Positions 21,249 to 39,229 of a stretch of DNA of 64,000 nucleotides are shown here, one piece after another. This DNA comes from an uncultured Phascolarctobacterium sp. (GTDB lineage Bacteria > Bacillota > Negativicutes > Acidaminococcales > Acidaminococcaceae), in assembly GCF_900753045.1 (NCBI RefSeq), contig NZ_CAADXO010000012.1, forward strand, positions 36,588-100,587, written 5' to 3'. The notes beneath the pieces were generated by a model. The model searched no databases and was not told where the DNA came from. It was given only the letters and a program-made list of their open reading frames with translations. The position numbers and the translations under genes are program-made. The first letter of the stretch is position 1. Each line of letters starts with the position of its first letter.

Positions 21249-21450
21249 AGGAGAATATAGTGTCATGCAGGGAATAAAAATTACAGCGAATAAGTGTCTG
21301 GAACCACAGAAGGGGCGCAATGTCTGAGCGCTATGCTTTGCTCGTACAGTACAATCTCTTAGCTTTGCGCGAGTTTTGCGCCACTTCGTCTTGGTTCCAC
21401 ACGAAATGAGCGACCGTAATTTTTGCTGACCGAAAGGACACTTATTCTCC
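21249..21450. repeat. Intergenic nested-inverted-repeat element, tandem copy A
   Basis: About 200-bp unit bounded by GGAGAATATAGTGTC ... GACACTTATTCTCC, with inner inverted repeats GTGTCTGGAACCA/TGGTTCCACAC and GGCGCAA/TTGCGCC. Confidence 0.6.
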
Positions 21451-21492
21451 GTCTATAGCTCACTCTATGATATTTTTCGTATAAAAAAAGCA

Positions 21493-21690
21493 GGAGAATA
21501 AGTATCATGTAGGGAATAAAAATTACAACGAATAAGTGTCCGGAACCAAAAAAGTTCAGCATTGTTTGAGCGCTATGCAAACTCATATTGCAAAATCTCT
21601 AAGCTTCGCGCGAGTTTTGCGCCACTTCGTCTTGGTTCCACACGAAATGAGTGGCCGTAATTTTTGCTGACCGTAGAGATACTTACTCTC
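21493..21690. repeat. Intergenic nested-inverted-repeat element, tandem copy B
   Basis: Second copy about 243 bp downstream, bounded by GGAGAATAAGTATC ... GAGATACTTACTCTCC. The terminal arms carry compensatory substitutions relative to copy A. It ends at the hydF RBS. Confidence 0.6.
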
Positions 21691-21758
21691 CGAACTACAA
21701 TTTCTATGTGTTATTTTTTCATACATATATTTCATACATATATAAAGGAGAACCCACC

Positions 21759-23019: not shown

Positions 23020-23289
23020 ATGCACAGCTTTTTATATTATTACCTGATCTTCATCAACTGCACCGCCTTTGTCGTCTACGGTGCAGATAAAGCCTTCGCC
23101 AAGCTGCATAGCTGGCGTGTGCCGGAAATAGTGCTGCTGCTTTTGGCAGCGCTCGGCGGCAGCGCGGGTGCGTTTATTGCCATGCAGCTTTTCCGCCACA
23201 AGACACAGCATTTGAAGTTCATCTTCGGCGTACCGCTCATCTTCTTCCTGCAGGTTGCACTCATCAGCTATTTTTTCTATAAGGGCTGA
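23020..23289 (+). CDS. Small DUF1294-like membrane protein
   Basis: 89 aa with two predicted TM helices and the YGADKAFAKL...WRVPE pattern seen in DUF1294 proteins. Confidence 0.5.
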   Translation: MHSFLYYYLIFINCTAFVVYGADKAFAKLHSWRVPEIVLLLLAALGGSAGAFIAMQLFRHKTQHLKFIFGVPLIFFLQVALISYFFYKG

Positions 23290-23299
23290 GCGCTCCCTA

Positions 23300-23372
23300 A
23301 AAACCGTACAAACCGTGCAAAACCGTACAACCCCTTGCTGCATAAGGCTTTGGGGCTGTACGGTTTTTGTGT
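23300..23372. terminator. Palindromic terminator-like element, family copy 1
   Basis: AAAACCGTACA...TGTACGGTTTTTGT arms around the loop region CCCCTTGCTGCATAAGGCTTTGGGGC. Directly follows the DUF1294 gene stop. Confidence 0.5.
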
Positions 23373-23612
23373 TGTGTACGGTACTCCCACAGGAGTGGTT
23401 TTGGCAAATTATGTGAGTATATGCAAATCATTTTCTGCATCACAAAACGCTTCTCATTTCTGCGTATTAGAAGCATTTTTTGCTATTCGTGTAGTTTAGT
23501 GTAAAAAAAGTGCTTTTTTTCGCGTATTTTTACACGAATATTTTGGAGAAATGTGTTGTTTTTGACACGAAAGAATTTTATAATATAGGTAGAAACATCG
23601 GAGGTGATAAAT

Positions 23613-24908
23613 ATGTATAGAAAAATATCACAGAAATTACTTGCATGGAAAGAAAGTCCTTTCCGCAAACCACTTTTATTGCAAGGTGCCAGACAGGTAG
23701 GCAAAACCTTCTCTGTTTTGGAATTTGGGCGTAACAACTATGAAAATGTAGCATATTTTAACTTTGAAACCAACACACAATTAAACGCAACCTTTGAGGA
23801 AAATATAGAGCCGGGATATTTGCTGCCTATTTTATCACATATAGCAGGCACCAGTATCATCAAGGAAAAAACACTCATCATCTTCGATGAAGTGCAGCTT
23901 TGTGAACGTGCTCTCACCTCGTTAAAATACTTTTGCGAGCAGGCACCGGAATACCACATCATCGCTTTGGGAAGCCTTTTAGGTGTCGCAGTTAACCGCA
24001 AAACCTACTCCTTCCCAGTTGGTAAGGTGGATATGCTTACCATGTATCCGATGGATATGGAAGAATTTTTGTTGGCGCTGGACGAAAGCTACCTGTTGGA
24101 GAAAATCAAGGCCTGCTTTAAAGATAAAACTGCTATGCCTGCAGCCCTACACCAATCTGCCTTAGAGCTTTACCGACAATATCTTGTTGTAGGCGGTATG
24201 CCGGAGGCAGTGATGATTTTCAGCAAGACGAAGGATTATGTCTTTGTCCGTCATATTCAGGATACTATTCTTACAAGCTATCTTAATGATATGAGCAAGT
24301 ACAATACTGAAAATGAAATCAAAAAGACCAGGCTTACGTATGATAATATAACGGTGCAGCTTTCCAAGAAGAATACACGCTTTCAATATAAGCTGATAAA
24401 AAGCGGTGCGCGGGCAGCGGAGTTTGAAAACGCGATAGAATGGCTTATTCTTTCCGGTATAGTTGACCAGGTTTATAAGGTTGAGCAAATCAAAAAGCCT
24501 TTGGCTAACTACCGTGATATTGATGCCTTTAAGATTTATTTGTCAGATGTAGGCTTATTATGCGCCAAGAAAGACATTATTGCCAACGATATCCTTTATA
24601 TGGTGGATGAACTTAATGATTTTAAGGGTGGTATGACGGAAAACTATGTGCATAATCAACTGAAAATCAATGATTATACAACCTACTATTGGGAATCGGA
24701 TCGTGGCGCTGAAATTGACTTTATTATTCAGCGCGAAGGCAAGCTCATTCCTATTGAAGTAAAAGCTGCCGATAACACCAGAGCCAAAAGCTTGAAGCTG
24801 TATATGGACAGGTTCGAGCCTGCATATGCTATCAAACTTTCTACCAAAAATTTTGCTCAGGAGGATAATAAGCTTATTATTCCTTTATATGCAGCATTTT
24901 GTATCTGA
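23613..24908 (+). CDS. AAA+ ATPase with a DUF4143-type C-terminal domain
   Basis: Walker A LLLQGARQVGKT, Walker B LIIFDEVQ, and the long C-terminal region typical of the AAA_14/DUF4143 family. Start at MYRKISQ, 6 nt after GGAGGTG. Confidence 0.75.
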   Translation: MYRKISQKLLAWKESPFRKPLLLQGARQVGKTFSVLEFGRNNYENVAYFNFETNTQLNATFEENIEPGYLLPILSHIAGTSIIKEKTLIIFDEVQLCERALTSLKYFCEQAPEYHIIALGSLLGVAVNRKTYSFPVGKVDMLTMYPMDMEEFLLALDESYLLEKIKACFKDKTAMPAALHQSALELYRQYLVVGGMPEAVMIFSKTKDYVFVRHIQDTILTSYLNDMSKYNTENEIKKTRLTYDNITVQLSKKNTRFQYKLIKSGARAAEFENAIEWLILSGIVDQVYKVEQIKKPLANYRDIDAFKIYLSDVGLLCAKKDIIANDILYMVDELNDFKGGMTENYVHNQLKINDYTTYYWESDRGAEIDFIIQREGKLIPIEVKAADNTRAKSLKLYMDRFEPAYAIKLSTKNFAQEDNKLIIPLYAAFCI

Positions 24909-24937
24909 AGTAATAGAATAGCGTACACATAACAAAA

Positions 24938-24990
24938 ACCGTACACGCGCAAAGCCTTGCCACGCCTGCGTTTGTACGGTTTTGTTGTCT
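24938..24990. repeat. Palindromic terminator-like element, family copy 2
   Basis: AAAACCGTACACGCGCAAAGCCTTGCCACGCCTGCGTTTGTACGGTTTTGT, directly after the ATPase stop. Confidence 0.55.
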
Positions 24991-25118
24991 TAAAGTTGAT
25001 GCTCTGACTAATTATCATTACTTTTATCAGAAAATACTTATTCTGCCAGAAGCTTATAGGATCCCTTGTTTTTGAAAATTAGTTGCTCATAAGCTTTCAG
25101 AGCATCTTCATCATTGGC

Positions 25119-25928
25119 TTATTCTTCTGGTTCCGCAACCTTCGGCGGATACTTTTCTTCAAAAGCGCGCAATACACCAAGCAGTCTTTCGTCCAGATAG
25201 CTCATGCCCTGCTCCCGCAGTTTTTGCGGTATGCCGTAATAGCATTCTGCTACCGCACCGGTGATTGCTGCTAGCGTGTCGCTGTCACCACCGATAGAAA
25301 TAGCATTACGGATTGCATCTTCATAGCTTGTCGACTCGAAGAAAGCCATCAATGCCTGCGGTACGGTATTCTGGCAGGTTTCATTGAACATATAGGAATC
25401 GCGGATACCATCGAGCGTGAAGTCCATAGGATAATAGTTGGCATCAATATAATCCCTGATGGCTTGCATATCTGCGCCCTGCTTAGCCATAAAGGCTGCC
25501 ACGGCAGTTGCCTCCGCTCCCTTGATGCCCTCCGGATGGTTGTGCGTCACGTCTGTCACCATCAGCGAAAGCTGTTTAACCTGCTCCATGGTATTCGCAG
25601 TATATACAACACCGCTTACGCGCATTGCCGAACCGTTGCCATAGCTGTTATAAGGCTGCGGGTCGCCAAAATAAAGCCAGCAAGAAAAGGTTCTGCCATA
25701 ACCGGCATCAGGATATGCCTCACCAAAAGCACGCATTTTTGCTACAGCCTGCTCGCGCAAATCGCTGAAATCAGGCTTGCTCTCCAAAAGCGCCTCGCAT
25801 AACGCCAAAGACATTACGCTGTCATCTGTGAAAAAGCAGCCATTAGTAAAAAACTCAAAATCCTTTGCTTTGTAATTATCCCATTCAAAACGTGAACCGA
25901 CAATATCGCCGATAATTGCACCCAGCAT
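25119..25928 (-). CDS. ADP-ribosylglycohydrolase (ARH/DraG family)
   Basis: MLGAIIGDIVGSRFEW...FTDDSVMSLAL...GGDSDTLAAITGA are ARH metal-binding motifs. Start at MLGAI with GGAGG 8 nt upstream; the ORF table starts 15 nt earlier. Confidence 0.8.
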   Translation of the reverse strand: MLGAIIGDIVGSRFEWDNYKAKDFEFFTNGCFFTDDSVMSLALCEALLESKPDFSDLREQAVAKMRAFGEAYPDAGYGRTFSCWLYFGDPQPYNSYGNGSAMRVSGVVYTANTMEQVKQLSLMVTDVTHNHPEGIKGAEATAVAAFMAKQGADMQAIRDYIDANYYPMDFTLDGIRDSYMFNETCQNTVPQALMAFFESTSYEDAIRNAISIGGDSDTLAAITGAVAECYYGIPQKLREQGMSYLDERLLGVLRAFEEKYPPKVAEPEE

Positions 25929-26088
25929 TGTATACGCCTCCACTCTTTTGTTATATGTATATTATAGCATAATTGCTGCGATATTACTTGTTATATACGT
26001 ATATGCGTGTTAAAATGAGTTTGTAAACAGATAAATTTGATAGTCTTTTCAAACTTTTCTTTTATATTTTTATAAGGAGTTGGTCGTA

Positions 26089-26616
26089 TTGGAATACTTG
26101 GTTATCAAAAACAATATTACTGAGATAAAATGCGATGCTGTTGTCAATTCAGCTAATCAACATTTAATTAAAGGCTCTGGCATTTGTAAATCAATATATG
26201 AAAGTGCCGGGGAAGCAGAATTGGATAAGTATTTAGAATGCGCTGATGGTCTTGTTGAAGGTGAATGTATTGCAACACCAGGATTTAATTTGCCTGCAAA
26301 ATATATTTTTCATGTTCTCACTCCCAAGTATTATATAAAGAATGATATAAACATAGAAAAATTTAGTCAGTGCTATGCCTCTATTCTACAAGCAGCAGAA
26401 TACTATCGTTGTGAAACAATAGCTATTCCATGTATTGGCACGGGACATCATGGCTGGCCGTTGGATTTGTCTTCTAACATTGCTATAGATACTTTATATT
26501 GGATTATAAATGCAGATGAATCGCGTTTTTCTTTCTTAAAGCAAGTTATTTTTAGTTGTCCTGATTGGCAACATTACTTAACTTATAAGGGATTAATAAA
26601 TTCAAGGAAACTATAA
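26089..26616 (+). CDS. Stand-alone macro-domain protein
   Basis: IKCDAVVNSANQHLIKGSGICKSIYESAG ... IAIPCIGTGHHGWP are macro-domain motifs. GC is very low (about 33%) against a 57% host. Probable TTG start 9 nt after AGGAG; the ORF table uses TTG at 26080. Confidence 0.7.
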   Translation: MEYLVIKNNITEIKCDAVVNSANQHLIKGSGICKSIYESAGEAELDKYLECADGLVEGECIATPGFNLPAKYIFHVLTPKYYIKNDINIEKFSQCYASILQAAEYYRCETIAIPCIGTGHHGWPLDLSSNIAIDTLYWIINADESRFSFLKQVIFSCPDWQHYLTYKGLINSRKL

Positions 26617-26671
26617 ATATATACTATTGTATCTTTCCGTACATTATCGAACATAAAGGAGGCGCTACATC

Positions 26672-27058
26672 ATGCTCGTTATATATCCCGCAATTATTCA
26701 TGTTGATGATGATGGCCTGTGGGCAGAATTCCCCGATCTTCCGGGCTGCTTTACGCAAGGCGATACGCAGGAGGAGCTGCTGGCCAAAGCGGCGGAAGCT
26801 ATGGAATGCTTTTTGATGGGACTGCTGGAGGACGGCGAAAAGCTGCCGCAGGCTTCTGCTCCCCAAAACATCAAATTGACCGAACCCAATACCTATACTT
26901 CCTTGATTCAGTCGAAAATAGACCTAGCGAAGAATACGCGTTCTGTTAAAAAGACGCTGACTATTCCTGCGTGGCTCAACAAGCGCGCTCTGGACGCCAA
27001 TATTAACTTCAGCAGCCTGCTGCAGGACGCTCTTGTAAACGAACTGAAAATCGTCTAA
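26672..27058 (+). CDS. HicB-family antitoxin-like protein (UPF0150 N-domain plus C-terminal RHH), no adjacent hicA
   Basis: MLVIYPAIIHVDDDGLWAEFPDLPGCFTQGDTQEELLAKAAEAMECFL matches the HicB N-domain. The C-terminal KKTLTIPAWLNKRALDANINFSSLLQDAL looks like an RHH. Confidence 0.6.
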   Translation: MLVIYPAIIHVDDDGLWAEFPDLPGCFTQGDTQEELLAKAAEAMECFLMGLLEDGEKLPQASAPQNIKLTEPNTYTSLIQSKIDLAKNTRSVKKTLTIPAWLNKRALDANINFSSLLQDALVNELKIV

Positions 27059-27115
27059 ACCGTACATGCGCAAAGCCCTGCCCGGCCTGCGTTTGTACGG
27101 TTTTGTACGGTTTTC
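27059..27115. repeat. Palindromic terminator-like element, family copy 3
   Basis: AAACCGTACATGCGCAAAGCCCTGCCCGGCCTGCGTTTGTACGGTTTTGTACGGTTTT, near-identical to copy 2 and directly after the hicB-like stop. Confidence 0.55.
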
Positions 27116-27208
27116 TGCGACAGCCAAATATACATATAAATATACAGAAACGCTCTGCCAACCTTGCGGTCAGCAGAGCGTTTTATTGTGTCAGTATAAA
27201 GCCTCAGC

Positions 27209-30200
27209 TTATTTGAAGTAGCTTACGCCGGACAGGAAAATCTTCTGATCCTTGTCGCCAGCAATGTTGCGGAACAGGCCCGGAGCAAAGCGCTCGCTGT
27301 GACCCATCTTGCCGAGGATACGTCCGTCGGGGCTAGTGATGCCTTCGATAGCATACAGGCTGCCGTTCGGGTTGAACGGAGTGTTCATGGTCGGTACGCC
27401 CTGAGCATTTACATACTGGGTAGCAACCTGGCCGTTAGCGAACAGCTCTTTAATGGTGCTTTCCGGAGCGTAGAAACGGCCTTCGCCGTGGGATACGGCA
27501 ACTGCATGCTCTTCGCCGGGCTCGCACAGGCTGAACCACGGAGATTTGTTGGAAACAACTCTGGTGGTAACAATCTGGGAAATATGACGGCCGATGTTGT
27601 TGAAGGTCAGTGTCGGTGCATCGCTGGTCATATCGCGGATATCGCCGTACGGAACGAGGCCAAGCTTAATCAATGCCTGGAAGCCATTGCAGATACCCAG
27701 CATCAGGCCATCGCGGTTTTCGAGCAGGTCGCTGATTGCTTCCTTGATGCGCGGGTTGCGGAACATGGTAGCGATGAATTTGCCGCTGCCGTCAGGCTCG
27801 TCACCGGCGCTGAAGCCACCGGGGATCATAACGATCTGGGAGTTGTTGATATATTTAACCATTGCTTCTACGGATTCTTCGATAGCAGCAGCGGTAAGGT
27901 TGCGCACGATGAAGGTGTTAGCTTCGGCACCTGCAGCTTCAAAAGCGCGGGCACTGTCGTATTCGCAGTTGTTGCCGGGGAATACGGGGATGAATACGCG
28001 CGGTTTGGCGATATTCACCGGAGCGGTGAGCGTCAGCTCGCTCTTGTACAGCGGCATAGCGATGTCAGCAGGCTCCTCTGCCTTCGGAGTGCCGTCCGGG
28101 AAGATGCCCAGCAGCGGCTCGCGGTATGCGGCAAAGGCTTTCGCAGCGTCAATCTTGGTGTCGTTGATGGTGATGCCTGCTTCGGCAGTAGTGTGGCCGA
28201 GCAGCATGTAATCCAGACCTTCGAACAGCTCTTCCGGTTCTACGCCGGCTGCCAGCTCGATAACCATGCCACCGGGCTGCAGAGTAAAGAGGCTGTCGGT
28301 ATCGTGGAACGGTTTGATGAATTCAAAGCCAAGCTCGTTGCCCAGGCTCATGGTGGTTACCAGTGCAGCTACGCCACCCTCTTTAACAGCGGCAGCAGCA
28401 GCGATTTTGCCTGCTTCTATAGCCTTGTGTACAGCGGTCAGGTTTTCCTTCAGCGCTGCAAAATCCAGTACTTCGGCACTGTTGCGCGGGCAGGACAGGA
28501 AGATTACCTTGTCGCCTGCTGCCTTGAAGTCGGCAGATACAGCCTTGTTGCCATCGATTACGCCTACAGCGAAGGAAACGAGTGTAGGCGGAACGGTTTT
28601 GTCCATGAAGGTACCGCTCATGCTGTCCTTGCCGCCGATTGCCGGCAGGTCCAGTGCATCAAGTGCGGTGAAGGCGCCCAGCAGTGCGCTGAACGGCTGG
28701 CCCCAGCTGTTGGCATCATGCAGTTTCGGGAAGTACTCCTGCAGAGTCAGGCGCAGCTTAGCGGGGTCTGCACCCAGAGCTACGGCACGAACTACGGATT
28801 CGGTTACAGCGTACATTGCGCCGTGGAACGGGCTCCAGCAGGCAACGTTCGGGTTGTAGCCGCAGGCCATTACGCTGGCTGCAGTGGTGTTGCCATGCAG
28901 CACAGGAATGCGACCTACCATGCCCTCGCTCGGGGTGAGCTGGGTTTTGCCGCCAAACGGCATCATTACGGTGCCACGGCCGATGGTGCTGTCAAAGCGC
29001 TCGGACAGGCCCTTTTCGCTGCAAACATTCAGACGGCCGAGGTTAGCCAGCCATGCAGCCTCCAGGTCAGCAGCGGAGGTTACTTCGGCAGGAACCTGCT
29101 CGAATACGTTGTCCTCTTTTTCTTCGCTTACTACGATATTGGTGTGCTGTGCAACGCCGTTGGTATCGAGGAAAGCGCGGGACAGGTCAACAATTTTATC
29201 GCCACGCCAGAACATAACCAGGCGCGGTTCTTCGGTAACGTCGGCAACAACAGTTGCTTCCAGGTTTTCTTCGTCAGCATATTTGATGAAGGCGTCGCGG
29301 TCAGCGGCAGCGATAACAACAGCCATACGCTCCTGAGATTCGGAGATAGCCAGCTCGGTGCCGTCCAGGCCTTCGTATTTCTTGGGAACCTTGTCGAGAT
29401 CAATAACAAGACCGTCGGTCAGCTCGCCGATAGCAACGGATACACCGCCTGCACCGAAGTCGTTGCAGCGTTTGATCATTGCGGTTACGGCAGGGTTGCG
29501 GAACAGACGTTGGATTTTGCGTTCGGTCGGAGGATTACCCTTCTGTACCTCTGCGCCGCAGCTCATGAGGGAGTCAACAGTGTGCTCCTTGGAGGAACCG
29601 GTTGCACCGCCGCAGCCGTCACGGCCGGTTTTACCGCCCAGCAGTACTACGATATCGCCGGCAGAGGGACGCTCACGGCGAACTGCGCTACGGGGAGCAG
29701 CGCCGATTACGCCGCCGATTTCCATACGCTTCGCAACAAATTTATCATGATAGTATTCCTGTACATGGCCGGTTGCCAGACCGATCTGGTTGCCGTAGGA
29801 GCTGTAGCCTGCAGCTGCGCCGATGGTAATCTTGCGCTGAGGCAGCTTGCCGGGCAGGGTTTCGCTGATCGGGGTGCGCGGGTCGGCACTGCCGGTTACA
29901 CGCATAGCCTGATATACATAGGAACGGCCGGACAGCGGATCGCGGATTGCACCGCCGAGGCAGGTTGCAGCGCCGCCGAACGGTTCGATTTCGGTCGGAT
30001 GGTTATGGGTTTCGTTTTTGAACATTACCAGCCACTCTTCGGTTTTGCCGTCGATTTCGATAGGCACAACGATAGAGCAGGCATTGATTTCTTCGGACTG
30101 GTCAAGGTCAGCCAGCTTGCCTTCCTTGCGCAGCTTCTTCATGCCGATTACGGCAATGTCCATCAGGGTTACCGGACGCTCGGTGTCTTCACCGTAAACC

Positions 30201-30985
30201 TCGTCACGGGCAGCCATGTATTTGTCATAAGCCTCTTGTACAGGCTGGGTAAAGGTGCCAGGAACGATATCTACATCCTCAATCTGAGTCATGAAGGTGG
30301 TATGACGGCAGTGGTCGGACCAGTAGGTATCCAGCACACGGATTTCAGTAATAGTCGGCTCGCGGTGCTCCTCGTTAAAGTATTTCTGGCACCACAGCAG
30401 GTCGTCCAGGCTCATAGCCAGGCCCATGGATTGGCGCAGTGCTTCTGCTTCTTCCTTGGACATGGTCAGGAAACCGGTAACGGATTTAACCTTTTCCGGC
30501 TCCTCGCAGGTGCTGATGAGGGTTTCAGGCTTAGCCTGCTCAGCCTCACGCGCTTCAATCGGGTTGATGCAGTAAGCCTTGATTTTTTCAACTTCTTCCG
30601 CAGTCAGCTCGCCTTCCAGCACATATACCTTAGCGGCAGCAACCATCGGGCGCTCCTTTTGGGTAATCAGCTGGATACATTGTTCGGCAAAATCCTCACG
30701 CTGGTCATATTGACCGGGCAGCAGCTCTACGGCAAAGGCAGCCTCGCCTGCAGCCAGCGGCAGCTCTTCTTCTACAACATTGTCGACAGGTGGCTCGGAC
30801 AGTACCAGCTGTTTAGCCATAGCGAATTCCTCATCGCTCAGGCCCATCACGTCATAGCGGTTAACGATACGCATACCGGTAAGATTGCTCATACCAAGGT
30901 TATTGCGCAGGTCTGCCAGCAAGCCATGTGCTTCGACAGCAAAGGCATCCTTCTTTTCTACAAAAAGTCTTCTAATGTTACTCAT
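27209..30985 (-). CDS. purL: Phosphoribosylformylglycinamidine synthase, single-chain large form (about 1260 aa)
   Basis: N-terminal PurS-like region, central AIRS/FGAM synthetase domains and a C-terminal glutaminase with the triad region GICNGFQAL. Start at MSNIRR, 8 nt after GGAGG. Confidence 0.95.
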   Translation of the reverse strand: MSNIRRLFVEKKDAFAVEAHGLLADLRNNLGMSNLTGMRIVNRYDVMGLSDEEFAMAKQLVLSEPPVDNVVEEELPLAAGEAAFAVELLPGQYDQREDFAEQCIQLITQKERPMVAAAKVYVLEGELTAEEVEKIKAYCINPIEAREAEQAKPETLISTCEEPEKVKSVTGFLTMSKEEAEALRQSMGLAMSLDDLLWCQKYFNEEHREPTITEIRVLDTYWSDHCRHTTFMTQIEDVDIVPGTFTQPVQEAYDKYMAARDEVYGEDTERPVTLMDIAVIGMKKLRKEGKLADLDQSEEINACSIVVPIEIDGKTEEWLVMFKNETHNHPTEIEPFGGAATCLGGAIRDPLSGRSYVYQAMRVTGSADPRTPISETLPGKLPQRKITIGAAAGYSSYGNQIGLATGHVQEYYHDKFVAKRMEIGGVIGAAPRSAVRRERPSAGDIVVLLGGKTGRDGCGGATGSSKEHTVDSLMSCGAEVQKGNPPTERKIQRLFRNPAVTAMIKRCNDFGAGGVSVAIGELTDGLVIDLDKVPKKYEGLDGTELAISESQERMAVVIAAADRDAFIKYADEENLEATVVADVTEEPRLVMFWRGDKIVDLSRAFLDTNGVAQHTNIVVSEEKEDNVFEQVPAEVTSAADLEAAWLANLGRLNVCSEKGLSERFDSTIGRGTVMMPFGGKTQLTPSEGMVGRIPVLHGNTTAASVMACGYNPNVACWSPFHGAMYAVTESVVRAVALGADPAKLRLTLQEYFPKLHDANSWGQPFSALLGAFTALDALDLPAIGGKDSMSGTFMDKTVPPTLVSFAVGVIDGNKAVSADFKAAGDKVIFLSCPRNSAEVLDFAALKENLTAVHKAIEAGKIAAAAAVKEGGVAALVTTMSLGNELGFEFIKPFHDTDSLFTLQPGGMVIELAAGVEPEELFEGLDYMLLGHTTAEAGITINDTKIDAAKAFAAYREPLLGIFPDGTPKAEEPADIAMPLYKSELTLTAPVNIAKPRVFIPVFPGNNCEYDSARAFEAAGAEANTFIVRNLTAAAIEESVEAMVKYINNSQIVMIPGGFSAGDEPDGSGKFIATMFRNPRIKEAISDLLENRDGLMLGICNGFQALIKLGLVPYGDIRDMTSDAPTLTFNNIGRHISQIVTTRVVSNKSPWFSLCEPGEEHAVAVSHGEGRFYAPESTIKELFANGQVATQYVNAQGVPTMNTPFNPNGSLYAIEGITSPDGRILGKMGHSERFAPGLFRNIAGDKDQKIFLSGVSYFK

Positions 30986-31175: not shown

Positions 31176-32330
31176 CTAAGCTTCTATCACAGCAACGTGT
31201 TTTTCCGAACATTCCTGCAAGATGTGCCCATAGATAGCATAGGTGACCGCTATGCTAGTGTGTCCTAAGCGTTCTGTTATAAGAGCTATAGGTACATGCT
31301 TGTAAATCATGTTGGATGCATTTGTGTGTCTCAATCCGTGGAACGTGAAAGGTCTAGTGATACCTGCGCCTTTCCTAGTGAAATCCCACGCATGGATAAG
31401 CAACCGCTCCACATAGAAGCTATCTCTTTTCCTATTATAGAAGATATAAGGTGACTTGTCAAAGCTAAGTGGCTTTAAAGACATAAGAAGCTGTGTTGTC
31501 TTCTCAGATATTTTGATGGTGCGATACCCAGCTTGTGTCTTAGGGTATGTAACTATTGTCTTGTTATTCTTATCCTTAGCTAAGGTTCTTTTTACAGATA
31601 TTGTATTAGCAGCATCATCGAGACAATCCCACGTAAGAGCTAACAGCTCCCCTTCTCTCATGCCTGTTTCATAAGCAAGACAATACAGAGCATAGAACTG
31701 ATACTTCAGCATAGGTTTCTCCTTGTGCTCCCATAGGGGCAGGAGGAACGCTTTGATTCGCTCGTGCTCCTCTTGCGATAAGACAACCACTTCATGTTTA
31801 GGTTTGTCACTCTTTGGTGTCTTCTGCATCGAAGTTACAGGTGACTTTCCAATGAGGTCTTGTTCTACACACCATTTGAAAAAGAGCCTTAAGCGACCTA
31901 TATAATTAAGATAGGTATTAGTTGAATAGTTCTTTTGATGCCACTCTAAGAGCATGGTATCTATAGTATGAGTGGTGACCTTAGATAACGCTAAGCCATT
32001 AGCTGTTTTGTCTAGGAGCTTAAGTACACGCCTTGTGGTGATTATTACAGACCCTGACATCCGCTGAGCTTCTAGGTGCTTAAGGTACACCTCACCCTGA
32101 TACTTTATTGTGTCTTCTTCTGCTTTTACTTGCAGACCTTTATCCTCTTTGTCTCTCTGAAGCTTCTTCAGCTTCTCCACAGCTTCCTTTTTTGTGTCTG
32201 CTGTGGCTGATAGCCAACGCCTTTTGCCATCCACAGGGTCTAATTCTACCCTAACACGTACTTTACCGCTAGGGAGGACTATTATAGACCCCTCTCCTTT
32301 AGGTCTTCTACGAGTGGTTTTAGATGGCAT
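31176..32330 (-). CDS. int: Tyrosine-type site-specific recombinase (phage integrase)
   Basis: C-terminal catalytic region FHGLRHTNAS ... LGHTSIAVTYAIYGHI carrying the R..H-x-x-R...Y signature. Start at MPSKTTRRR, 7 nt after AGGAGG. Confidence 0.9.
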   Translation of the reverse strand: MPSKTTRRRPKGEGSIIVLPSGKVRVRVELDPVDGKRRWLSATADTKKEAVEKLKKLQRDKEDKGLQVKAEEDTIKYQGEVYLKHLEAQRMSGSVIITTRRVLKLLDKTANGLALSKVTTHTIDTMLLEWHQKNYSTNTYLNYIGRLRLFFKWCVEQDLIGKSPVTSMQKTPKSDKPKHEVVVLSQEEHERIKAFLLPLWEHKEKPMLKYQFYALYCLAYETGMREGELLALTWDCLDDAANTISVKRTLAKDKNNKTIVTYPKTQAGYRTIKISEKTTQLLMSLKPLSFDKSPYIFYNRKRDSFYVERLLIHAWDFTRKGAGITRPFTFHGLRHTNASNMIYKHVPIALITERLGHTSIAVTYAIYGHILQECSEKHVAVIEA

Positions 32331-32389
32331 TATAAAACCTCCTGACTTCAAAAATTGCCAAAAATTGTGAAAGGGTATATATAATATAG

Positions 32390-36643: not shown

Positions 36644-39229
36644 ATGACACAAGTAGATGTGGACATGATGGAAGAAGAATTGAAGTTGGAATCTGCCTAC
36701 AGATTAGCAGGGTATGAAACGATGCAACGCAACCTGCAACAAGCCAAAGAAAATAGCATGGTAGATACAGCTACCCCTATTGGACAAGCATTTTTCACCC
36801 ACAAGCTGTTGGCTGTAAAAGACACAATCGAACAATGGCTTATCAAGAACATGAAACCCAAAGCAGGTGTAAAGCCTAACTATACTTTTCTTTTGGAAGA
36901 CCTGAAAAGAGAGTTCCGCACAGAGGATGATGAGGTTGATATTGACACCATATCTTCTATCTGTGCTAGTGTTACCTTATCCGCTATCTTAAATGCCTTA
37001 ACTCTCAAAGGTGAAAAAGGCAACTATCTGAATGATGTAGCTGCTAAAGCTGGGCGTGGCTTGTACTATGAGTATCAGATGAAAGCCTTTGAAAATTGGC
37101 TGAAGACACAAGACACCAATAAAGGAGCATTGGCAGGTATAGAAAAAAGAGTTGGTCTCCATTATCGTTATGTCTATCTGAAACAGGCTATGTCCAAATG
37201 TGGCTACGCTGCCCCAAATTGGGATAGTCAGAACACAGCTATCCGTACATTAGGTACTGCTTTTGTTGTCTTAGCACAGGAGGAGACAAACTACTTCACC
37301 TTAGAAGCTACTATGGATACCCCTTCTGAGCTTATCCCCACAGAGCAATTTACAGAAGCGTGGCAACGCAATGAAGACAATATGCTGGAACATGCAAGAC
37401 AAAGCTGCCCTATGATTATCCCTCCTAAAGATTGGACAAGCTATGAGGATGGTGGTTATTATGGTGACCTTGCATCCTTCACCTCTCTCCTGCGTTTAAA
37501 GTACCTTGATACTATTTTTGGTAAACAGTACAAACGTAGACTTATGCAACTTGACATTCCACAGGTTTATAAGGCTGTCAATAGTATTCAGGCAACACCA
37601 TGGGTAATCAATAAGCAGGTATTAGAGGTGCTGAAGCAATGTAGACAAAACAACTATATCCCCTGCTCTAGTGAGAATGGAAATGTGCTGTCTTTAGAAA
37701 ATGATGATGCTCCCAAACAACCAGCATCCACAGCCACGGATGAGGAAATAAAGGCATATAAGAAAAAGGCTGTGGAATACTACAAGGGATTGAAACGTCG
37801 TATGTCTTTGCAGAATCGTGCAAATACTATTATAAATACAGCAGAACGCTTCAGCTCCTATGCACACATCTACTTTCCGTGGAACATGGACTTCAGAGGT
37901 CGCATTTACCCTATCCCCTCTTTCAGTCCTCAAAGTGATGATTTAAACAAAGGCTTATTACTTTTTGCAGACACACCACCTTGCCAACATGAAGAAGACA
38001 TCAAGTGGCTTGCCATTACCGGAGCGAACCTTGCAGGTGTAGATAAAGTAAGCTACGATGATAGAATTGCATGGGTATATCAGCATGAAGAAGATATATT
38101 AGCATCTGCTGCTGACCCTATGGGACATCAATGGTGGCTGCAACAGGATGAGCCTGTACAGATGCTGGCGTTCTGCTTTGAGTGGGCAAAGGCTAAGCAA
38201 TGGATAGTTGCACATGGCTCTATTGTTGGTTGGGTAACAGGTCTCCCCTATGCTCAGGATGGAACGTGCTCCGGTCTGCAACATTTCAGTGCTATTCTCA
38301 GAGACCCTATTGGTGGTAAAGCTGTAAACCTTGTACCCCAAGACAAACCAAATGACATCTATGCACAAGTAGCGGAAAAAGTCAATGAGTTTTTGAAAAA
38401 AGATGCAGTAAATGGCACTCTTGATGAATGGGATGAAAAGAAGCTGAGAATGAAGTTTGGCACAAAAACCCTTGCGCAAATATGGTTAAACTTTGGGGTA
38501 AACCGCAAGGTTACCAAAAGACCAACCATGACACTCGCCTATGGTGCTAAAAAGGCAGGATATACTGCTCAAATTATGGAAGACACCATAAAGAAGGCAA
38601 TGAGAGAGCAGGGAGAAGCGTGTGTCTTCACTCAATCTAATAATTTTCAGGCTGCACAGTATTTGGCTGGTCAGATATGGGATGCTGTGGGTCAAACAGT
38701 TGTAAAGGCTGTTGAGGGTATGGATTGGTTACATAAATGTGCTAAACTTGTCACAAAAAATTCAAATGTTGTATCTTGGGTTACCCCTCTAGGCTTACTG
38801 TTACAACAGAGCTATGTCAAGTTTGATATTGAAATTGTTAAGCTCAGATGTGCTGGAAAACGCTATCGTATCTATACTCCACATCAGAATGGACAGATAG
38901 ACAAAAGCAGACAAACAAATGGCATTGCCCCTAACTTCATTCATAGCATGGATGCATGTCACTTGCAACTTACAGTCTGCAAATGCAAAGATGCAGGAAT
39001 TAATCACTTTACGATGATTCACGATAGCTATGGTTGTCCTATGTCTCAGGTGGATATTATGTATAAGTTAGTAAGAGAAGCCTTTATAGAGCTTTATACA
39101 GAGCATGATGTTCTTGCTGAATTTAAAGAATCTCTACAATATTTAGTAACTAAAGAACTCCCTGCTCCACCTAAAAAGGGAGAATTAGACCTGAACATTA
39201 TAAGAGACAGTAAGTATATATTTTGCTAA
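36644..39229 (+). CDS. Single-subunit DNA-directed RNA polymerase (T7 gene 1 family)
   Basis: Motif A region DGTCSGLQHFSAILRD against T7 DGSCSGIQHFSAMLRD. Motif C MIHDSYG. LAFCFEWAKAK against T7 LAFCFEY. 861 aa against 883 aa in T7. Confidence 0.95.
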   Translation: MTQVDVDMMEEELKLESAYRLAGYETMQRNLQQAKENSMVDTATPIGQAFFTHKLLAVKDTIEQWLIKNMKPKAGVKPNYTFLLEDLKREFRTEDDEVDIDTISSICASVTLSAILNALTLKGEKGNYLNDVAAKAGRGLYYEYQMKAFENWLKTQDTNKGALAGIEKRVGLHYRYVYLKQAMSKCGYAAPNWDSQNTAIRTLGTAFVVLAQEETNYFTLEATMDTPSELIPTEQFTEAWQRNEDNMLEHARQSCPMIIPPKDWTSYEDGGYYGDLASFTSLLRLKYLDTIFGKQYKRRLMQLDIPQVYKAVNSIQATPWVINKQVLEVLKQCRQNNYIPCSSENGNVLSLENDDAPKQPASTATDEEIKAYKKKAVEYYKGLKRRMSLQNRANTIINTAERFSSYAHIYFPWNMDFRGRIYPIPSFSPQSDDLNKGLLLFADTPPCQHEEDIKWLAITGANLAGVDKVSYDDRIAWVYQHEEDILASAADPMGHQWWLQQDEPVQMLAFCFEWAKAKQWIVAHGSIVGWVTGLPYAQDGTCSGLQHFSAILRDPIGGKAVNLVPQDKPNDIYAQVAEKVNEFLKKDAVNGTLDEWDEKKLRMKFGTKTLAQIWLNFGVNRKVTKRPTMTLAYGAKKAGYTAQIMEDTIKKAMREQGEACVFTQSNNFQAAQYLAGQIWDAVGQTVVKAVEGMDWLHKCAKLVTKNSNVVSWVTPLGLLLQQSYVKFDIEIVKLRCAGKRYRIYTPHQNGQIDKSRQTNGIAPNFIHSMDACHLQLTVCKCKDAGINHFTMIHDSYGCPMSQVDIMYKLVREAFIELYTEHDVLAEFKESLQYLVTKELPAPPKKGELDLNIIRDSKYIFC

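What the first reader, a model, noticed from the sequence alone, without database searches (positions are those of the whole stretch)
24938..27115. Low-GC ADP-ribose-reversal cassette (ARH, macro domain, orphan HicB-like) bracketed by near-identical 50-bp palindromic repeats
A divergent pair, an ADP-ribosylglycohydrolase (25119..25928, minus) and a macro-domain gene (26089..26616, plus), is followed by a HicB-like antitoxin with no hicA. The macro gene is about 33% GC in a 57% GC genome. The block is flanked by directly repeated AAACCGTACAYGCGCAAAGCCYTGCCMSGCCTGCGTTTGTACGGTTTTGT at 24938-24990 and 27059-27115. Two enzymes that remove ADP-ribose with no visible ADP-ribosyltransferase resemble the antitoxin or immunity half of ADP-ribosylating toxin or defence systems. 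The GC anomaly and flanking repeats indicate recent acquisition.
Basis: partly seen in the sequence, partly recalled or inferred. Interest (0 to 1): 0.6.

Follow-up and report, generated by a model that had tools for sequence, protein, structure and literature searches.

The report
Mosaic accessory-gene hot spot, not a cassette
The three genes are real, but they are a patchwork inside a strain-variable accessory-gene hot spot of a gut Phascolarctobacterium, and the flanking repeats are a genus-wide terminator-like hairpin that separates every module there, so the finding is largely ordinary.

Summary
The sequence features are all present: an ADP-ribosylglycohydrolase (ARH, 25119-25928, minus), a macro-domain gene (26089-26616), hicB (26672-27058) and two 50-nt palindromic repeats that are 46/50 identical.

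The "repeat-bracketed, recently acquired cassette" reading fails.
- A third hairpin copy lies at 23301-23386.
- In about 50 related Phascolarctobacterium loci the same hairpin sits at most junctions between variable modules in the gap between the DUF1294 gene and purL.
- The hairpin also follows ordinary genes such as valS and an iron-uptake operon.

The block is a mosaic of three parts.
- **ARH:** it is present in every layout sampled with the DUF1294 gene and stands alone in the P. succinatutens type strain.
- **Macro:** only a 681-bp segment (25974-26654, 32% GC) carrying the macro gene is compositionally extreme.
- **hicB:** it is the remnant of a hicAB pair that is intact in sister strains. 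The macro segment begins exactly where hicA would end.

ARH and macro do look like a functional pair. They are adjacent in three arrangements here and in Macro-vWA-ARH operons on mobile elements. Sister strains often carry a DUF3990 gene (Pfam ADP-ribosyltransferase clan) next to ARH.

The most likely role is stand-alone reversal of foreign ADP-ribosylation, which has already been predicted in the literature. I rate this a new member of a known kind, of modest interest.

The parts
23020..23289 (+). DUF1294 gene, the conserved left anchor of the hot spot
   Evidence: Pfam PF06961, E 2.8e-23. Present upstream of the variable region in all loci retrieved with it.
23301..23386 (.). hpA: type-1 palindromic unit. 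The core hairpin is 23320-23366, with two extra left-arm copies at 23301 and 23310. It is inverted relative to the other two copies.
   Evidence: Folds at -43 to -45 kcal/mol, z about -5. Present directly after the DUF1294 gene in every related locus.
23604..24908 (+). AAA_14/DUF4143 ATPase, a separate optional module. It matches the PADLOC candidate defence family PDC-S01.
   Evidence: Pfam. PADLOC PDC-S01, E 9.3e-173. Absent from this position in L121, L125, L134, L234 and others. 39.6% GC.
24922..24985 (.). hpB1: type-2 palindromic unit (core 24936-24982), lying between the convergent ATPase and ARH genes
   Evidence: -27 kcal/mol on either strand, with an A-tract and a T-tract on its flanks. 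96.8% identical to the single hpB of the ARH-only strain L134, where it lies on the other side of ARH.
25119..25928 (-). ARH3-like ADP-ribosylglycohydrolase, 269 aa. It is the near-constant resident of this site.
   Evidence: Pfam PF03747. Closest solved relatives are ARH3, E 2e-14. Motifs E15, T34-D35-D36, SYGNGSAMR and G-G-D215-S-D217-T218 are kept. Present in all 10 layouts retrieved with the DUF1294 gene, truncated in two.
25974..26654 (+). Low-GC macro segment (31.6% GC) holding its own promoter-like site, the macro gene and a 38-nt junction
   Evidence: blastn breakpoints. ARH-only strains share the window sequence up to 25973. hicAB strains share it again from 26655, which is the hicA stop. 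Promoter-like site at 25988-26016.
26089..26616 (+). Macro-domain protein, 175 aa, a MacroD-like fold with altered catalytic motifs
   Evidence: Pfam PF01661. Best NCBIfam hit is O-acetyl-ADP-ribose deacetylase, 105 bits against a cutoff of 200. PDB hits are MacroD-type domains. The subfamily motifs are KGSGICKxIY and GxGHHGWP in place of GGGVDGAIH and GVYGYP.
26617..26654 (+). 38-nt macro/hicB junction containing an arm-like CCGTACA remnant
   Evidence: Present, allowing up to 6 mismatches (those printed differ at 0-2 positions), in all 28 fetched loci that hold the Macro-HicB arrangement. Absent from hicAB loci.
26672..27058 (+). Orphan hicB antitoxin gene, 128 aa
   Evidence: Pfam PF15919. 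94-97% identical to HicB proteins that follow an intact 62-aa HicA (PF07927, E 9.6e-16) in L017, L083, L141 and L244.
27057..27113 (.). hpB2: type-2 palindromic unit (core 27057-27103) plus one extra right-arm copy. It overlaps the hicB stop codon.
   Evidence: -38 kcal/mol, z -6.2.
27148..27183 (-). Separate intrinsic terminator of purL (T2). Together with hpB2 it forms a 145-nt composite (27057-27201) that recurs next to the p340 gene in other strains.
   Evidence: Terminator scan: 16-bp stem plus T-run. The composite matches L141 11222-11378 at 83%.
27209..30985 (-). purL (FGAM synthase), the conserved right anchor of the hot spot
   Evidence: The precomputed Pfam domains of the orthologue are AIRS_C and GATase_5. 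97-100% identity across related loci.

Best explanation
The interval is the right-hand half of a strain-variable accessory-gene hot spot between the DUF1294 gene and purL in a Phascolarctobacterium succinatutens-like genome. The hot spot is built from independently gained and lost modules. Most of these are toxin-antitoxin or candidate defence genes. Most module junctions carry a copy of a genus-specific 47-nt palindrome (a 62-66 nt unit with its flank).

The palindrome has the anatomy of a bidirectional intrinsic terminator: an A-tract, a long stem and a T-tract. By inference it insulates neighbouring modules transcriptionally. It also supplies short shared homology at which modules are exchanged by recombination.

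1. An ARH3-like ADP-ribosylglycohydrolase that is almost always present at this site. It belongs to a large, highly mobile subfamily found in defence islands, type I restriction-modification loci, conjugative-element-like regions and phages.
2. A 681-bp low-GC segment carrying a divergent MacroD-like macro gene with its own promoter, transcribed divergently from ARH.
3. hicB, the antitoxin of a hicAB pair. Its hicA is absent here because the macro segment abuts hicB exactly at the position of the hicA stop codon.

Inferred function: ARH and macro act together as a stand-alone ADP-ribose-removal pair. They would strip ADP-ribose put on host macromolecules by transferases encoded elsewhere, such as phage enzymes, toxins of competitors, or the DUF3990 transferase-fold protein that occupies the neighbouring slot in sister strains. 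HicB is probably just an orphan autorepressor or antitoxin co-transcribed with macro.

Shown versus inferred: the gene identities, the mosaic structure, the module variability and the hairpin distribution are shown. The enzymatic substrates, the protective role and the recombination mechanism are inferred.
For: Module structure:
- Three hairpin copies in the window delimit two modules.
- Across about 50 related loci the layout is DUF1294 gene, hpA, then one to three modules each ending in hpB, then purL.
- The alternative cargo includes ARH alone; ARH+Macro+HicB; p340/p459 with or without hicAB; GmrSD; HTH+DUF3990 (PADLOC PDC-M42A/B); Fic; and the PDC-S01 ATPase.

Hairpin family:
- It also follows valS and the binding-protein gene of an iron-uptake operon. 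Other copies lie after an HTH gene close to a Mur-ligase gene. Related 47-nt variants with the same outer arms but different inner stems lie beside glmS.
- The structure is conserved: 93.8% of cells are paired, with compensatory changes at pairs 12-36 and 14-34.

Mosaic:
- blastn breakpoints fall at 25973/25974 and 26654/26655.
- GC3 is 0.23 for macro, 0.51 for ARH, 0.57 for hicB and 0.63-0.73 for core genes.
- Intact hicA precedes a 94-97% identical hicB in L017, L083, L141 and L244.

ARH-macro linkage:
- The two are divergent neighbours here and in a sister lineage where purL is 97% and ARH 96% identical but macro only 65%.
- They are convergent neighbours at a different locus (L149: ARH 80%, macro 50%).
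- Macro-vWA-ARH operons occur in IMG/VR contigs.

Conflict context of ARH:
- It lies next to McrBC, is fused to HsdM_N, lies next to SSB, and occurs in a Porphyromonas phage.
- The ARH metal-binding motifs are intact.

Literature:
- Transferase-less ARH-centred host systems are predicted to counter viral ADP-ribosylation (PMC9503650).
- Orphan hydrolases protect against a transferase toxin (PMC11833690).
Against: - No biochemical or genetic data exist for any of these proteins.
- The macro protein lacks the Asp and His that MacroD-type enzymes use: C33 and Y37 stand in their places, and GHHG replaces GV(Y/F)G. It might bind rather than hydrolyse ADP-ribose.
- ARH is truncated in two strains (L137, L138). 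Macro is missing from 7 of the 10 layouts sampled with the DUF1294 gene. Neither is therefore essential.
- PADLOC has no model matching ARH, macro or HicB.
- Some module junctions have no hairpin: ARH/macro, macro/hicB, and HTH-DUF3990/ATPase in L118. Hairpins are therefore not the only exchange points.
- The order of events that produced the macro-hicB junction cannot be resolved.
Confidence: 0.6

Rival explanations
1. One reading: ARH, macro and hicB form one recently acquired mobile cassette whose ends are the two direct repeats. It would act as the antitoxin or immunity half of an ADP-ribosylating toxin system.
For: - Two 46/50-identical direct repeats flank the three genes.
- The trio with the same junctions recurs in many strains.
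- Macro is strongly low in GC.
Against: - A third repeat copy and repeats at most other module junctions and after housekeeping genes.
- ARH stands alone between hairpins in L037, L134 and L136.
- Macro occurs without hicB in L235, L239, L241 and L247, and hicB occurs with hicA and without an adjacent macro in L141, L083 and L017.
- The compositional breakpoints at 25974 and 26654 lie inside the block, not at the repeats.
Confidence: 0.05
2. Housekeeping reading: ARH and macro dispose of endogenous ADP-ribose derivatives such as O-acetyl-ADP-ribose from sirtuins or ADP-ribose-1''-phosphate. Their position in a variable region would then be incidental.
For: - The best NCBIfam match of macro is O-acetyl-ADP-ribose deacetylase.
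- The closest solved relatives of ARH are ARH3, and members of the ARH superfamily release ADP-ribose from O-acetyl-ADP-ribose (PMC9503650).
- ARH is present in nearly all strains at this site.
Against: - Both genes are dispensable in natural strains: macro is absent from 7 of 10 sampled layouts and ARH is truncated in 2.
- Both have GC3 below core genes.
- The ARH subfamily is repeatedly found in restriction loci, mobile elements and phages.
- Macro alleles differ by 35% between lineages whose purL and ARH differ by 3-4%.
- All scores are far below the equivalog cutoffs.
Confidence: 0.2
3. The palindromic units are recombination sites of a dedicated cassette-exchange system, functionally analogous to integron attC arrays that lack a nearby integrase. 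Modules would be captured and shuffled site-specifically at the hairpins.
For: - Hairpins sit at most junctions between variable modules, in a fixed orientation pattern: hpA inverted, hpB direct.
- Extra tandem copies of the 10-nt arm occur at the borders.
- The 145-nt hpB+T2 composite is directly repeated on both sides of the p340-to-hicB module in L141.
- At a second site, after the iron-uptake operon, the hairpin is followed by different cargo in different genomes.
- The outer arms end in AAC...GTT.
Against: - No recombinase lies in or beside the hot spot. The only integrase (31176-32351) belongs to a T7-like prophage that is absent from other strains with the same modules.
- Modules are multi-gene, carry their own promoters and lie in both orientations.
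- Several junctions lack hairpins.
- The arms do not fit the RYYYAAC/GTTRRRY consensus.
- The anatomy is fully explained by bidirectional terminators plus homologous recombination.
Confidence: 0.12
4. Macro has replaced HicA as the toxin partner of HicB, creating a new macro/HicB toxin-antitoxin pair.
For: - Macro occupies exactly the hicA position, 55 nt upstream of hicB on the same strand with no terminator between them.
- The arrangement is widespread and has a single origin.
Against: - Several strains keep an intact macro gene while the adjacent hicB is reduced to a 33-nt relic and no other hicB is seen in the part of the locus recovered: L235, L239, L241 and L247.
- In the sister lineage macro is not next to hicB at all.
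- Characterised macro domains remove or bind ADP-ribose and none is known as a toxin (my own knowledge).
Confidence: 0.03

Closest known systems
Transferase-less ARH ('ARG')-centred host conflict systems predicted by Iyer, Burroughs, Anantharaman and Aravind 2022 (PMC9503650), and orphan ADP-ribosylhydrolases acting as immunity enzymes (Lu et al. 2025, PMC11833690)
   Same: - An ADP-ribosylglycohydrolase with no coupled transferase.
- Embedded in a variable conflict-gene neighbourhood.
- Accessory modules are gained and lost between close relatives.
- Related operons add a vWA protein, as described for those systems.
   Different: - The partner here is a small divergent macro protein, not a phosphatase or a Nudix/WYL regulator.
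- The described systems were reported mainly in actinobacteria, planctomycetes and proteobacteria, not Negativicutes.
- No activity has been tested.
DarT-DarG, DraT-DraG and Tre1-Tri1 (ADP-ribosyltransferase toxin or regulator with a macro or ARH reversal partner)
   Same: The same two hydrolase superfamilies (macro and ARH) reverse ADP-ribosylation. A predicted transferase-fold gene (DUF3990) lies next door in sister strains.
   Different: - No transferase gene in this window.
- Macro is a single MacroD-like domain rather than a TARG1-like DarG with a DarT-binding domain.
- ARH scores far below the DraG and Tri1 equivalog cutoffs.
- DUF3990 has its own HTH partner and occurs independently of macro.
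HicAB type II toxin-antitoxin system
   Same: HicB here is a full-length HicB-like antitoxin, 94-97% identical to copies that sit in canonical hicA-hicB operons in sister strains.
   Different: hicA is missing from the whole 64-kb window, and a macro gene occupies its place.
Repetitive extragenic palindromes (REP/BIME) and the 'minimal mobile elements' described in Neisseria, where different gene cassettes occupy the gap between two conserved genes. This comparison rests on my own knowledge and was not checked in the literature here.
   Same: - A short dispersed palindromic repeat in intergenic regions.
- A fixed chromosomal gap between conserved genes that holds different cassettes in different strains.
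- Exchange is most simply explained by homologous recombination.
   Different: - The hairpin family appears confined to Phascolarctobacterium. The hairpins from other genera in the scan share only the searched 10-nt arms.
- Its copy number is unknown.
- No REP-associated transposase link was shown.
- Here the repeats mark most internal module junctions rather than being scattered.
Integron attC cassette arrays, including clusters of attC sites that lack an integrase
   Same: Imperfect palindromes follow successive variable cassettes, many of them toxin-antitoxin genes.
   Different: - No integrase.
- No R'/R'' consensus.
- Modules are multi-gene, carry promoters and lie in both orientations.
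- The hairpins also follow housekeeping genes.

Membership tests
HicAB toxin-antitoxin system | HicB-like antitoxin protein | tested here: met
   PF15919 scores 58.6 bits against a cutoff of 27.
HicAB toxin-antitoxin system | Adjacent hicA toxin gene (PF07927) | tested here: not met
   There is no hicA in the window (tblastn best E 0.22). Intact hicA is present upstream of the orthologous hicB in L017, L083, L141 and L244.
DarTG | DarT (DUF4433) transferase gene next to the macro gene | tested here: not met
   The only plausible genes between 23300 and 27200 are the ATPase, ARH, macro and hicB. None of them is a transferase.
DarTG | DarG-type macro domain with a C-terminal toxin-binding domain | tested here: not met
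   The protein is a 175-aa single domain. Its best matches are MacroD/YmdB-type domains.
DraG (ADP-ribosyl-[dinitrogen reductase] hydrolase) | Equivalog-level match to TIGR02662 | tested here: not met
   58.6 bits against a cutoff of 337.
Tri1 (ADP-ribosylarginine hydrolase immunity protein) | Equivalog-level match to NF041672 | tested here: not met
   34.9 bits against a cutoff of 490.
ARH superfamily (PF03747), catalytically competent | Conserved binuclear-metal ligands and the substrate loop | tested here: met
   The alignment to ARH3 keeps TDD (T34-D36), SYGNG-AMR and GGD-DT (D215, D217, T218). Activity itself was not tested.
MacroD/YmdB O-acetyl-ADP-ribose deacetylase | Equivalog-level score and the catalytic Asp/His in GGGVDGAIH | tested here: not met
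   NF001664 scores 105 bits against a cutoff of 200. The motif is KGSGICKSIY, with Cys and Tyr where canonical members in the same alignment have Asp and His.
Macro domain (PF01661) | Domain match above the gathering score | tested here: met
   87.8 bits against a cutoff of 22.
Integron cassette array / attC | Integron integrase adjacent, or attC sites with R''/R' boxes (RYYYAAC/GTTRRRY) | tested here: not met
   No integrase lies in the hot spot in any strain. The arms read AAAAAAC...GTTTTGT. No attC covariance model was available, so a formal attC test was not run.
Intrinsic (bidirectional) terminator | Stable GC-containing stem followed by a T-run on the transcribed strand | tested here: inconclusive
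   The hairpins are stable, with an A-tract on the 5' side and a T-tract on the 3' side on both strands, at gene 3' ends. The simple scan did not list them because their loop exceeds its limit. Termination itself was not tested.
REP/BIME-type dispersed palindromes | Many intergenic copies per genome and an associated Y1 (RAYT) transposase | tested here: inconclusive
Only an IS200-type TnpA fragment was seen nearby, in one strain.
Defence or accessory-gene hot spot | A fixed site between conserved genes with alternative known or candidate defence cargo in different strains | tested here: met
   PDC-S01 ATPase, GmrSD, PDC-M42 (DUF3990+HTH), Fic and HicAB alternate between the DUF1294 gene and purL.

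The most novel reading that the evidence does not exclude
The 47-66 nt palindromic units are not just terminators. They would be the recombination sites of a hairpin-guided cassette-exchange mechanism in Phascolarctobacterium, served by a recombinase encoded elsewhere. This mechanism would assemble defence and toxin-antitoxin modules at a few chromosomal hot spots, making it a Negativicutes analogue of integron attC arrays. The ARH-macro pair would be one of its circulating anti-ADP-ribosylation modules.
Probability: 0.1. Interest if true: 0.65.

Novelty: new member of a known kind. Interest (0 to 1): 0.3.

Why it matters
If the functional inference holds, this is one more natural example of bacteria keeping stand-alone ADP-ribose-removing enzymes as protection against foreign ADP-ribosyltransferases. 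That idea has been predicted computationally and shown for a few enzymes.

The locus is useful in practice because natural strains already provide the controls: ARH alone, ARH plus macro, either one with or without the neighbouring DUF3990 transferase-fold gene, and hicB with or without hicA.

Three by-products may be worth more than the original finding:
- The macro subfamily with Cys/Tyr/His-His in place of the canonical catalytic residues.
- The link of this ARH subfamily to restriction-modification loci and Macro-vWA-ARH operons.
- The hairpin-punctuated hot spot.

None of them is established here as a new mechanism.

Tried and rejected
- **Known RNA families:** Rfam found nothing above threshold in the whole window. 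Around the hairpins it gave only a chance snoRNA hit at E 0.62. There are no tRNA genes that could serve as integration sites.
- **DNA-uptake sequence:** I rejected this for the 10-nt arm. All 8 copies in 64 kb lie inside the 4-kb hot spot.
- **Phage or plasmid origin of the block:** DNA searches found only short ARH matches of about 70% identity. IMG/VR macro genes are at most 39% identical to this one.
- **Cognate transferase or hicA hidden in the window:** tblastn with DUF3990, its HTH partner and HicA gave only chance hits.
- **Window layout derived from an L244-like layout by deleting p340-p459-hicA:** I withdrew this idea. L244, L235 and L241 carry a 33-nt hicB relic directly after macro, so the macro-hicB linkage is older than those layouts.
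- **Exact look-up of the 178-aa TTG-start macro product:** it found nothing. The 175-aa product starting at 26089 is the one on record.
- **PADLOC:** no model matches ARH, macro or HicB.
- **Genome-wide hairpin count:** Most hits outside Phascolarctobacterium share only the searched arms and look like chance terminators.


Full report
**1. What is in the sequence**

- Pfam assigns 25119-25928(-) to ADP_ribosyl_GH, the ORF ending at 26616 to Macro, and 26672-27058 to HicB_lk_antitox.
- The proposed starts give 269-aa and 175-aa products, which are exactly the products called on public contigs.
- The two repeats lie at 24936-24985 and 27057-27106. They are 46/50 identical, and essentially no chance matches are expected.
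- Each repeat is a long palindrome that folds stably on either strand.
- Macro is 33% GC with third-position GC of 0.23.

Two details are wrong or incomplete.
- The background is not 57% GC. The window is 45%, its non-prophage left part 49.5%, and the flanking core genes 56-58%.
- There is a third copy of the palindrome, inverted, at 23301-23386, just after the DUF1294 gene.

The hairpins therefore delimit two modules. The first holds an AAA_14/DUF4143 ATPase (23604-24908). The second holds ARH, macro and hicB.

**2. Where it comes from and how it varies**

A collection scan for the palindrome arms, and exact-protein look-ups, place the window in Phascolarctobacterium. The closest named genome is P. 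succinatutens YIT 12067.

The look-ups and a metagenome scan returned about 50 versions of the same chromosomal site. In all of them the order is DUF1294 gene, a type-1 hairpin (hpA), one to three modules each followed by a type-2 hairpin (hpB), then purL.

The layouts seen are:
- **Minimal:** hpA, ARH, hpB. This occurs in L134, L136 and the type strain (L037). In L137 and L138 the ARH is truncated.
- **With p340/p459:** two genes of unknown function are added, with or without an intact hicA-hicB pair (L139, L141).
- **With GmrSD:** GmrSD plus HTH-DUF3990 plus a 317-aa gene (L142).
- **With Fic:** a Fic module (L133, L135).
- **With the ATPase:** the window and L119-L124.
- **With HTH-DUF3990 alone:** L237-L239, L247, L248, L252.

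PADLOC matches the ATPase to the candidate defence family PDC-S01 (E 9e-173). It matches DUF3990 and its HTH partner to PDC-M42A/B. This is a typical accessory or defence-gene hot spot.

**3. The repeats**

The hairpin is a family, not a pair.
- Besides the hot spot, copies follow valS and the binding-protein gene of an iron-uptake operon. At the iron-uptake site the next gene differs between genomes.
- Other copies follow an HTH gene close to a Mur-ligase gene.
- Related 47-nt variants, with the same outer arms but different inner stems, lie beside glmS.
- The two subtypes share the 10-nt outer arms and an AAAGCC motif.
- The subtypes differ in the inner stem by compensatory changes. In a 26-sequence alignment 93.8% of cells are paired, and pairs 12-36 and 14-34 change on both sides.
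- The unit is preceded by an A-tract and followed by a T-tract, and it sits at gene 3' ends. hpB2 even contains the hicB stop codon, and hpB1 lies between two convergent genes.

This is the anatomy of a bidirectional intrinsic terminator, although termination was not tested. purL has its own separate terminator at 27148-27183.

Extra tandem copies of the arm at the borders hint that recombination happens in or near these units. So does a 145-nt hpB-plus-terminator composite that flanks the p340-to-hicB module in L141. However, several junctions have no hairpin, and no recombinase is encoded in the hot spot. The only nearby integrase (31176-32351) belongs to a T7-like prophage that other strains lack.

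**4. The 'cassette' is a mosaic**

blastn against other layouts gives sharp breakpoints.
- ARH-only strains share the window sequence from the ARH 3' end to 25973, 45 nt upstream of the ARH start. After that they run straight into hpB.
- hicAB strains share the window sequence again from 26655, which corresponds to the last base of the hicA stop codon.
- The 681 bp in between (31.6% GC) carry a promoter-like site, the macro gene and a 38-nt junction.
- That junction is present (printed copies differ at 0-2 positions) in all 28 fetched Macro-HicB loci, so the arrangement arose once.

HicB is 94-97% identical to copies preceded by a 62-aa HicA (PF07927) in L017, L083, L141 and L244. The antitoxin is therefore orphan here because macro sits where hicA should be.

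Several strains (L235, L241, L244 and others) keep macro intact but retain only a 33-nt relic of the adjacent hicB. This argues against macro being a toxin held in check by HicB.

**5. Are ARH and macro a pair?**

Yes, by gene-neighbourhood evidence.
- A sister lineage with purL 97% and ARH 96% identical has a macro gene at the same divergent position. That macro is only 65% identical and 29% GC. Its hicAB lies on the other side of ARH.
- A more distant relative has the two genes convergent at a different locus, with ARH 80% and macro 50% identical.
- ARH of the same subfamily (36-53% identical) lies within 3 kb of a macro gene in 13 of 80 IMG/VR macro loci and 2 of 60 metagenomic ones. It usually forms a Macro(about 337 aa)-vWA-ARH operon.

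The ARH subfamily is very large: all 8000 candidates that were scored passed E 1e-10, and the top hits outside this genus are 63-70% identical. It occurs next to McrBC, fused to the HsdM N-terminal domain inside a type I restriction-modification locus, next to SSB in a conjugative-element-like region, and in a Porphyromonas phage.

Its closest solved relatives are ARH3, and the metal-binding and substrate-loop motifs are intact.

Macro is MacroD-like by fold. Its subfamily has KGSGICKxIY and GxGHHGWP where canonical members have GGGVDGAIH and GVYGYP. Binding of ADP-ribose is therefore likely, but the catalytic mechanism is uncertain.

**6. The missing transferase**

The window has none. In sister strains a DUF3990 gene sits between hpA and hpB, immediately beside the ARH 3' end, in at least seven loci of this lineage. 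In the sister lineage it lies in the same islet but is separated from ARH by hicAB.

DUF3990 is listed in the Pfam ADP-ribosyltransferase clan (PMC7955679). It forms the C-terminal domain of the Rhs5 protein of Serratia, an Rhs family whose variable C-terminal domains are paired with immunity genes (PMC4524185).

It has its own overlapping HTH partner, and it occurs with ARH alone as well as with ARH plus macro. A specific toxin-antidote relation to ARH or macro is therefore possible but not shown.

**7. Most likely function and comparison with what is known**

The best-supported reading is that ARH and macro are a stand-alone ADP-ribose-removal pair kept in a conflict-gene hot spot. They would act on modifications made by transferases encoded elsewhere. 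hicB would be a leftover antitoxin.

This matches published ideas:
- Transferase-less ARH-centred host systems, often with vWA, are predicted to counter viral ADP-ribosylation (PMC9503650).
- Orphan hydrolases have been shown to protect against a transferase toxin (PMC11833690).

Membership in DarTG, DraTG, Tre1-Tri1 or canonical MacroD is not met at the level of defining features. A housekeeping role in O-acetyl-ADP-ribose disposal remains a real alternative.

**8. Verdict**

The enzyme pair and the orphan antitoxin hold. The repeat-bracketed, recently acquired three-gene cassette does not.
- I rate it a new member of known kinds and of modest interest.
- The most novel possibility left open is that the hairpins are true recombination sites of a cassette-exchange mechanism. 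I give that about 10%.

Noticed in passing
window 31176-64000: An integrated T7-like prophage lies directly downstream of purL, where other strains have thiE/thiM/thiD. It carries a tyrosine integrase (31176-32351, minus), a single-subunit T7-type RNA polymerase (36644-39229), a T7 primase-helicase, PolA, a portal, a Gp10A-like capsid, a nozzle protein and internal virion proteins. It is about 42% GC.
   Followed up: partly
window 21259-21692: Two tandem copies of a unit of about 241 nt (85-87% identical) lie in the gap upstream of hydF. In strain L135 the homologous gap holds an IS200-type Y1 transposase N-terminal fragment, so these may be remnants of insertion-sequence ends.
   Followed up: partly
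window 23604-24908: The AAA_14/DUF4143 ATPase in the first hairpin-bounded module is a strong match to the PADLOC candidate single-gene defence family PDC-S01 (E 9e-173). Paralogues about 33% identical lie next to hairpins at another locus (L012, L029, L040).
   Followed up: partly
L320/L321 6001-7197; L314-L319 6001-6807; L324-L326 6001-6867: Close homologues (64-68% identical) of the window's ARH appear in three contexts: fused to an HsdM N-terminal domain inside a type I restriction-modification locus with multiple HsdS genes and an integrase; beside McrBC; and beside SSB in a conjugative-element-like region.
   Followed up: partly
L183 4983-7590; also L163, L194, L196, L267: There is a recurrent three-gene operon: a macro protein of about 337 aa, a vWA protein of about 217 aa, and an ARH of the same subfamily. 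It occurs on IMG/VR and metagenome contigs, some of them with integrases.
   Followed up: partly
window 26089-26616 (alignment A1): The macro subfamily replaces the canonical GGGVDGAIH and GVYGYP motifs with KGSGICKxIY and GxGHHGWP. The Cys, Tyr and His-His are conserved among the roughly dozen closest subfamily members in the alignment, which suggests a changed catalytic or binding chemistry.
   Followed up: no
L142 12303-13602; L143 1732-3031; L237-L239, L247, L248, L252: An overlapping gene pair, DUF3990 (Pfam ADP-ribosyltransferase clan) plus a 213-aa protein with a C-terminal HTH, occupies the slot beside ARH in L142 and L237-L252. In the sister lineage (L143) it lies in the same islet but is separated from ARH by hicAB. 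It matches PADLOC candidate system PDC-M42A/B.
   Followed up: partly
L141 11390-13873 (p340, p459): Two co-oriented genes of 340 and 459 aa recur as a hot-spot module and have no Pfam, NCBIfam or PADLOC match. In several strains p459 is reduced to a 37-aa stub.
   Followed up: no
L076 6332-7578; L009 6104-7921; L012 7176-8000: At two other chromosomal sites a hairpin copy is followed by the same 343-aa AAA_25 gene (L076, L009). At one of those sites another genome has a DUF4143 ATPase instead (L012). Hairpins may therefore mark further variable insertion sites.
   Followed up: partly
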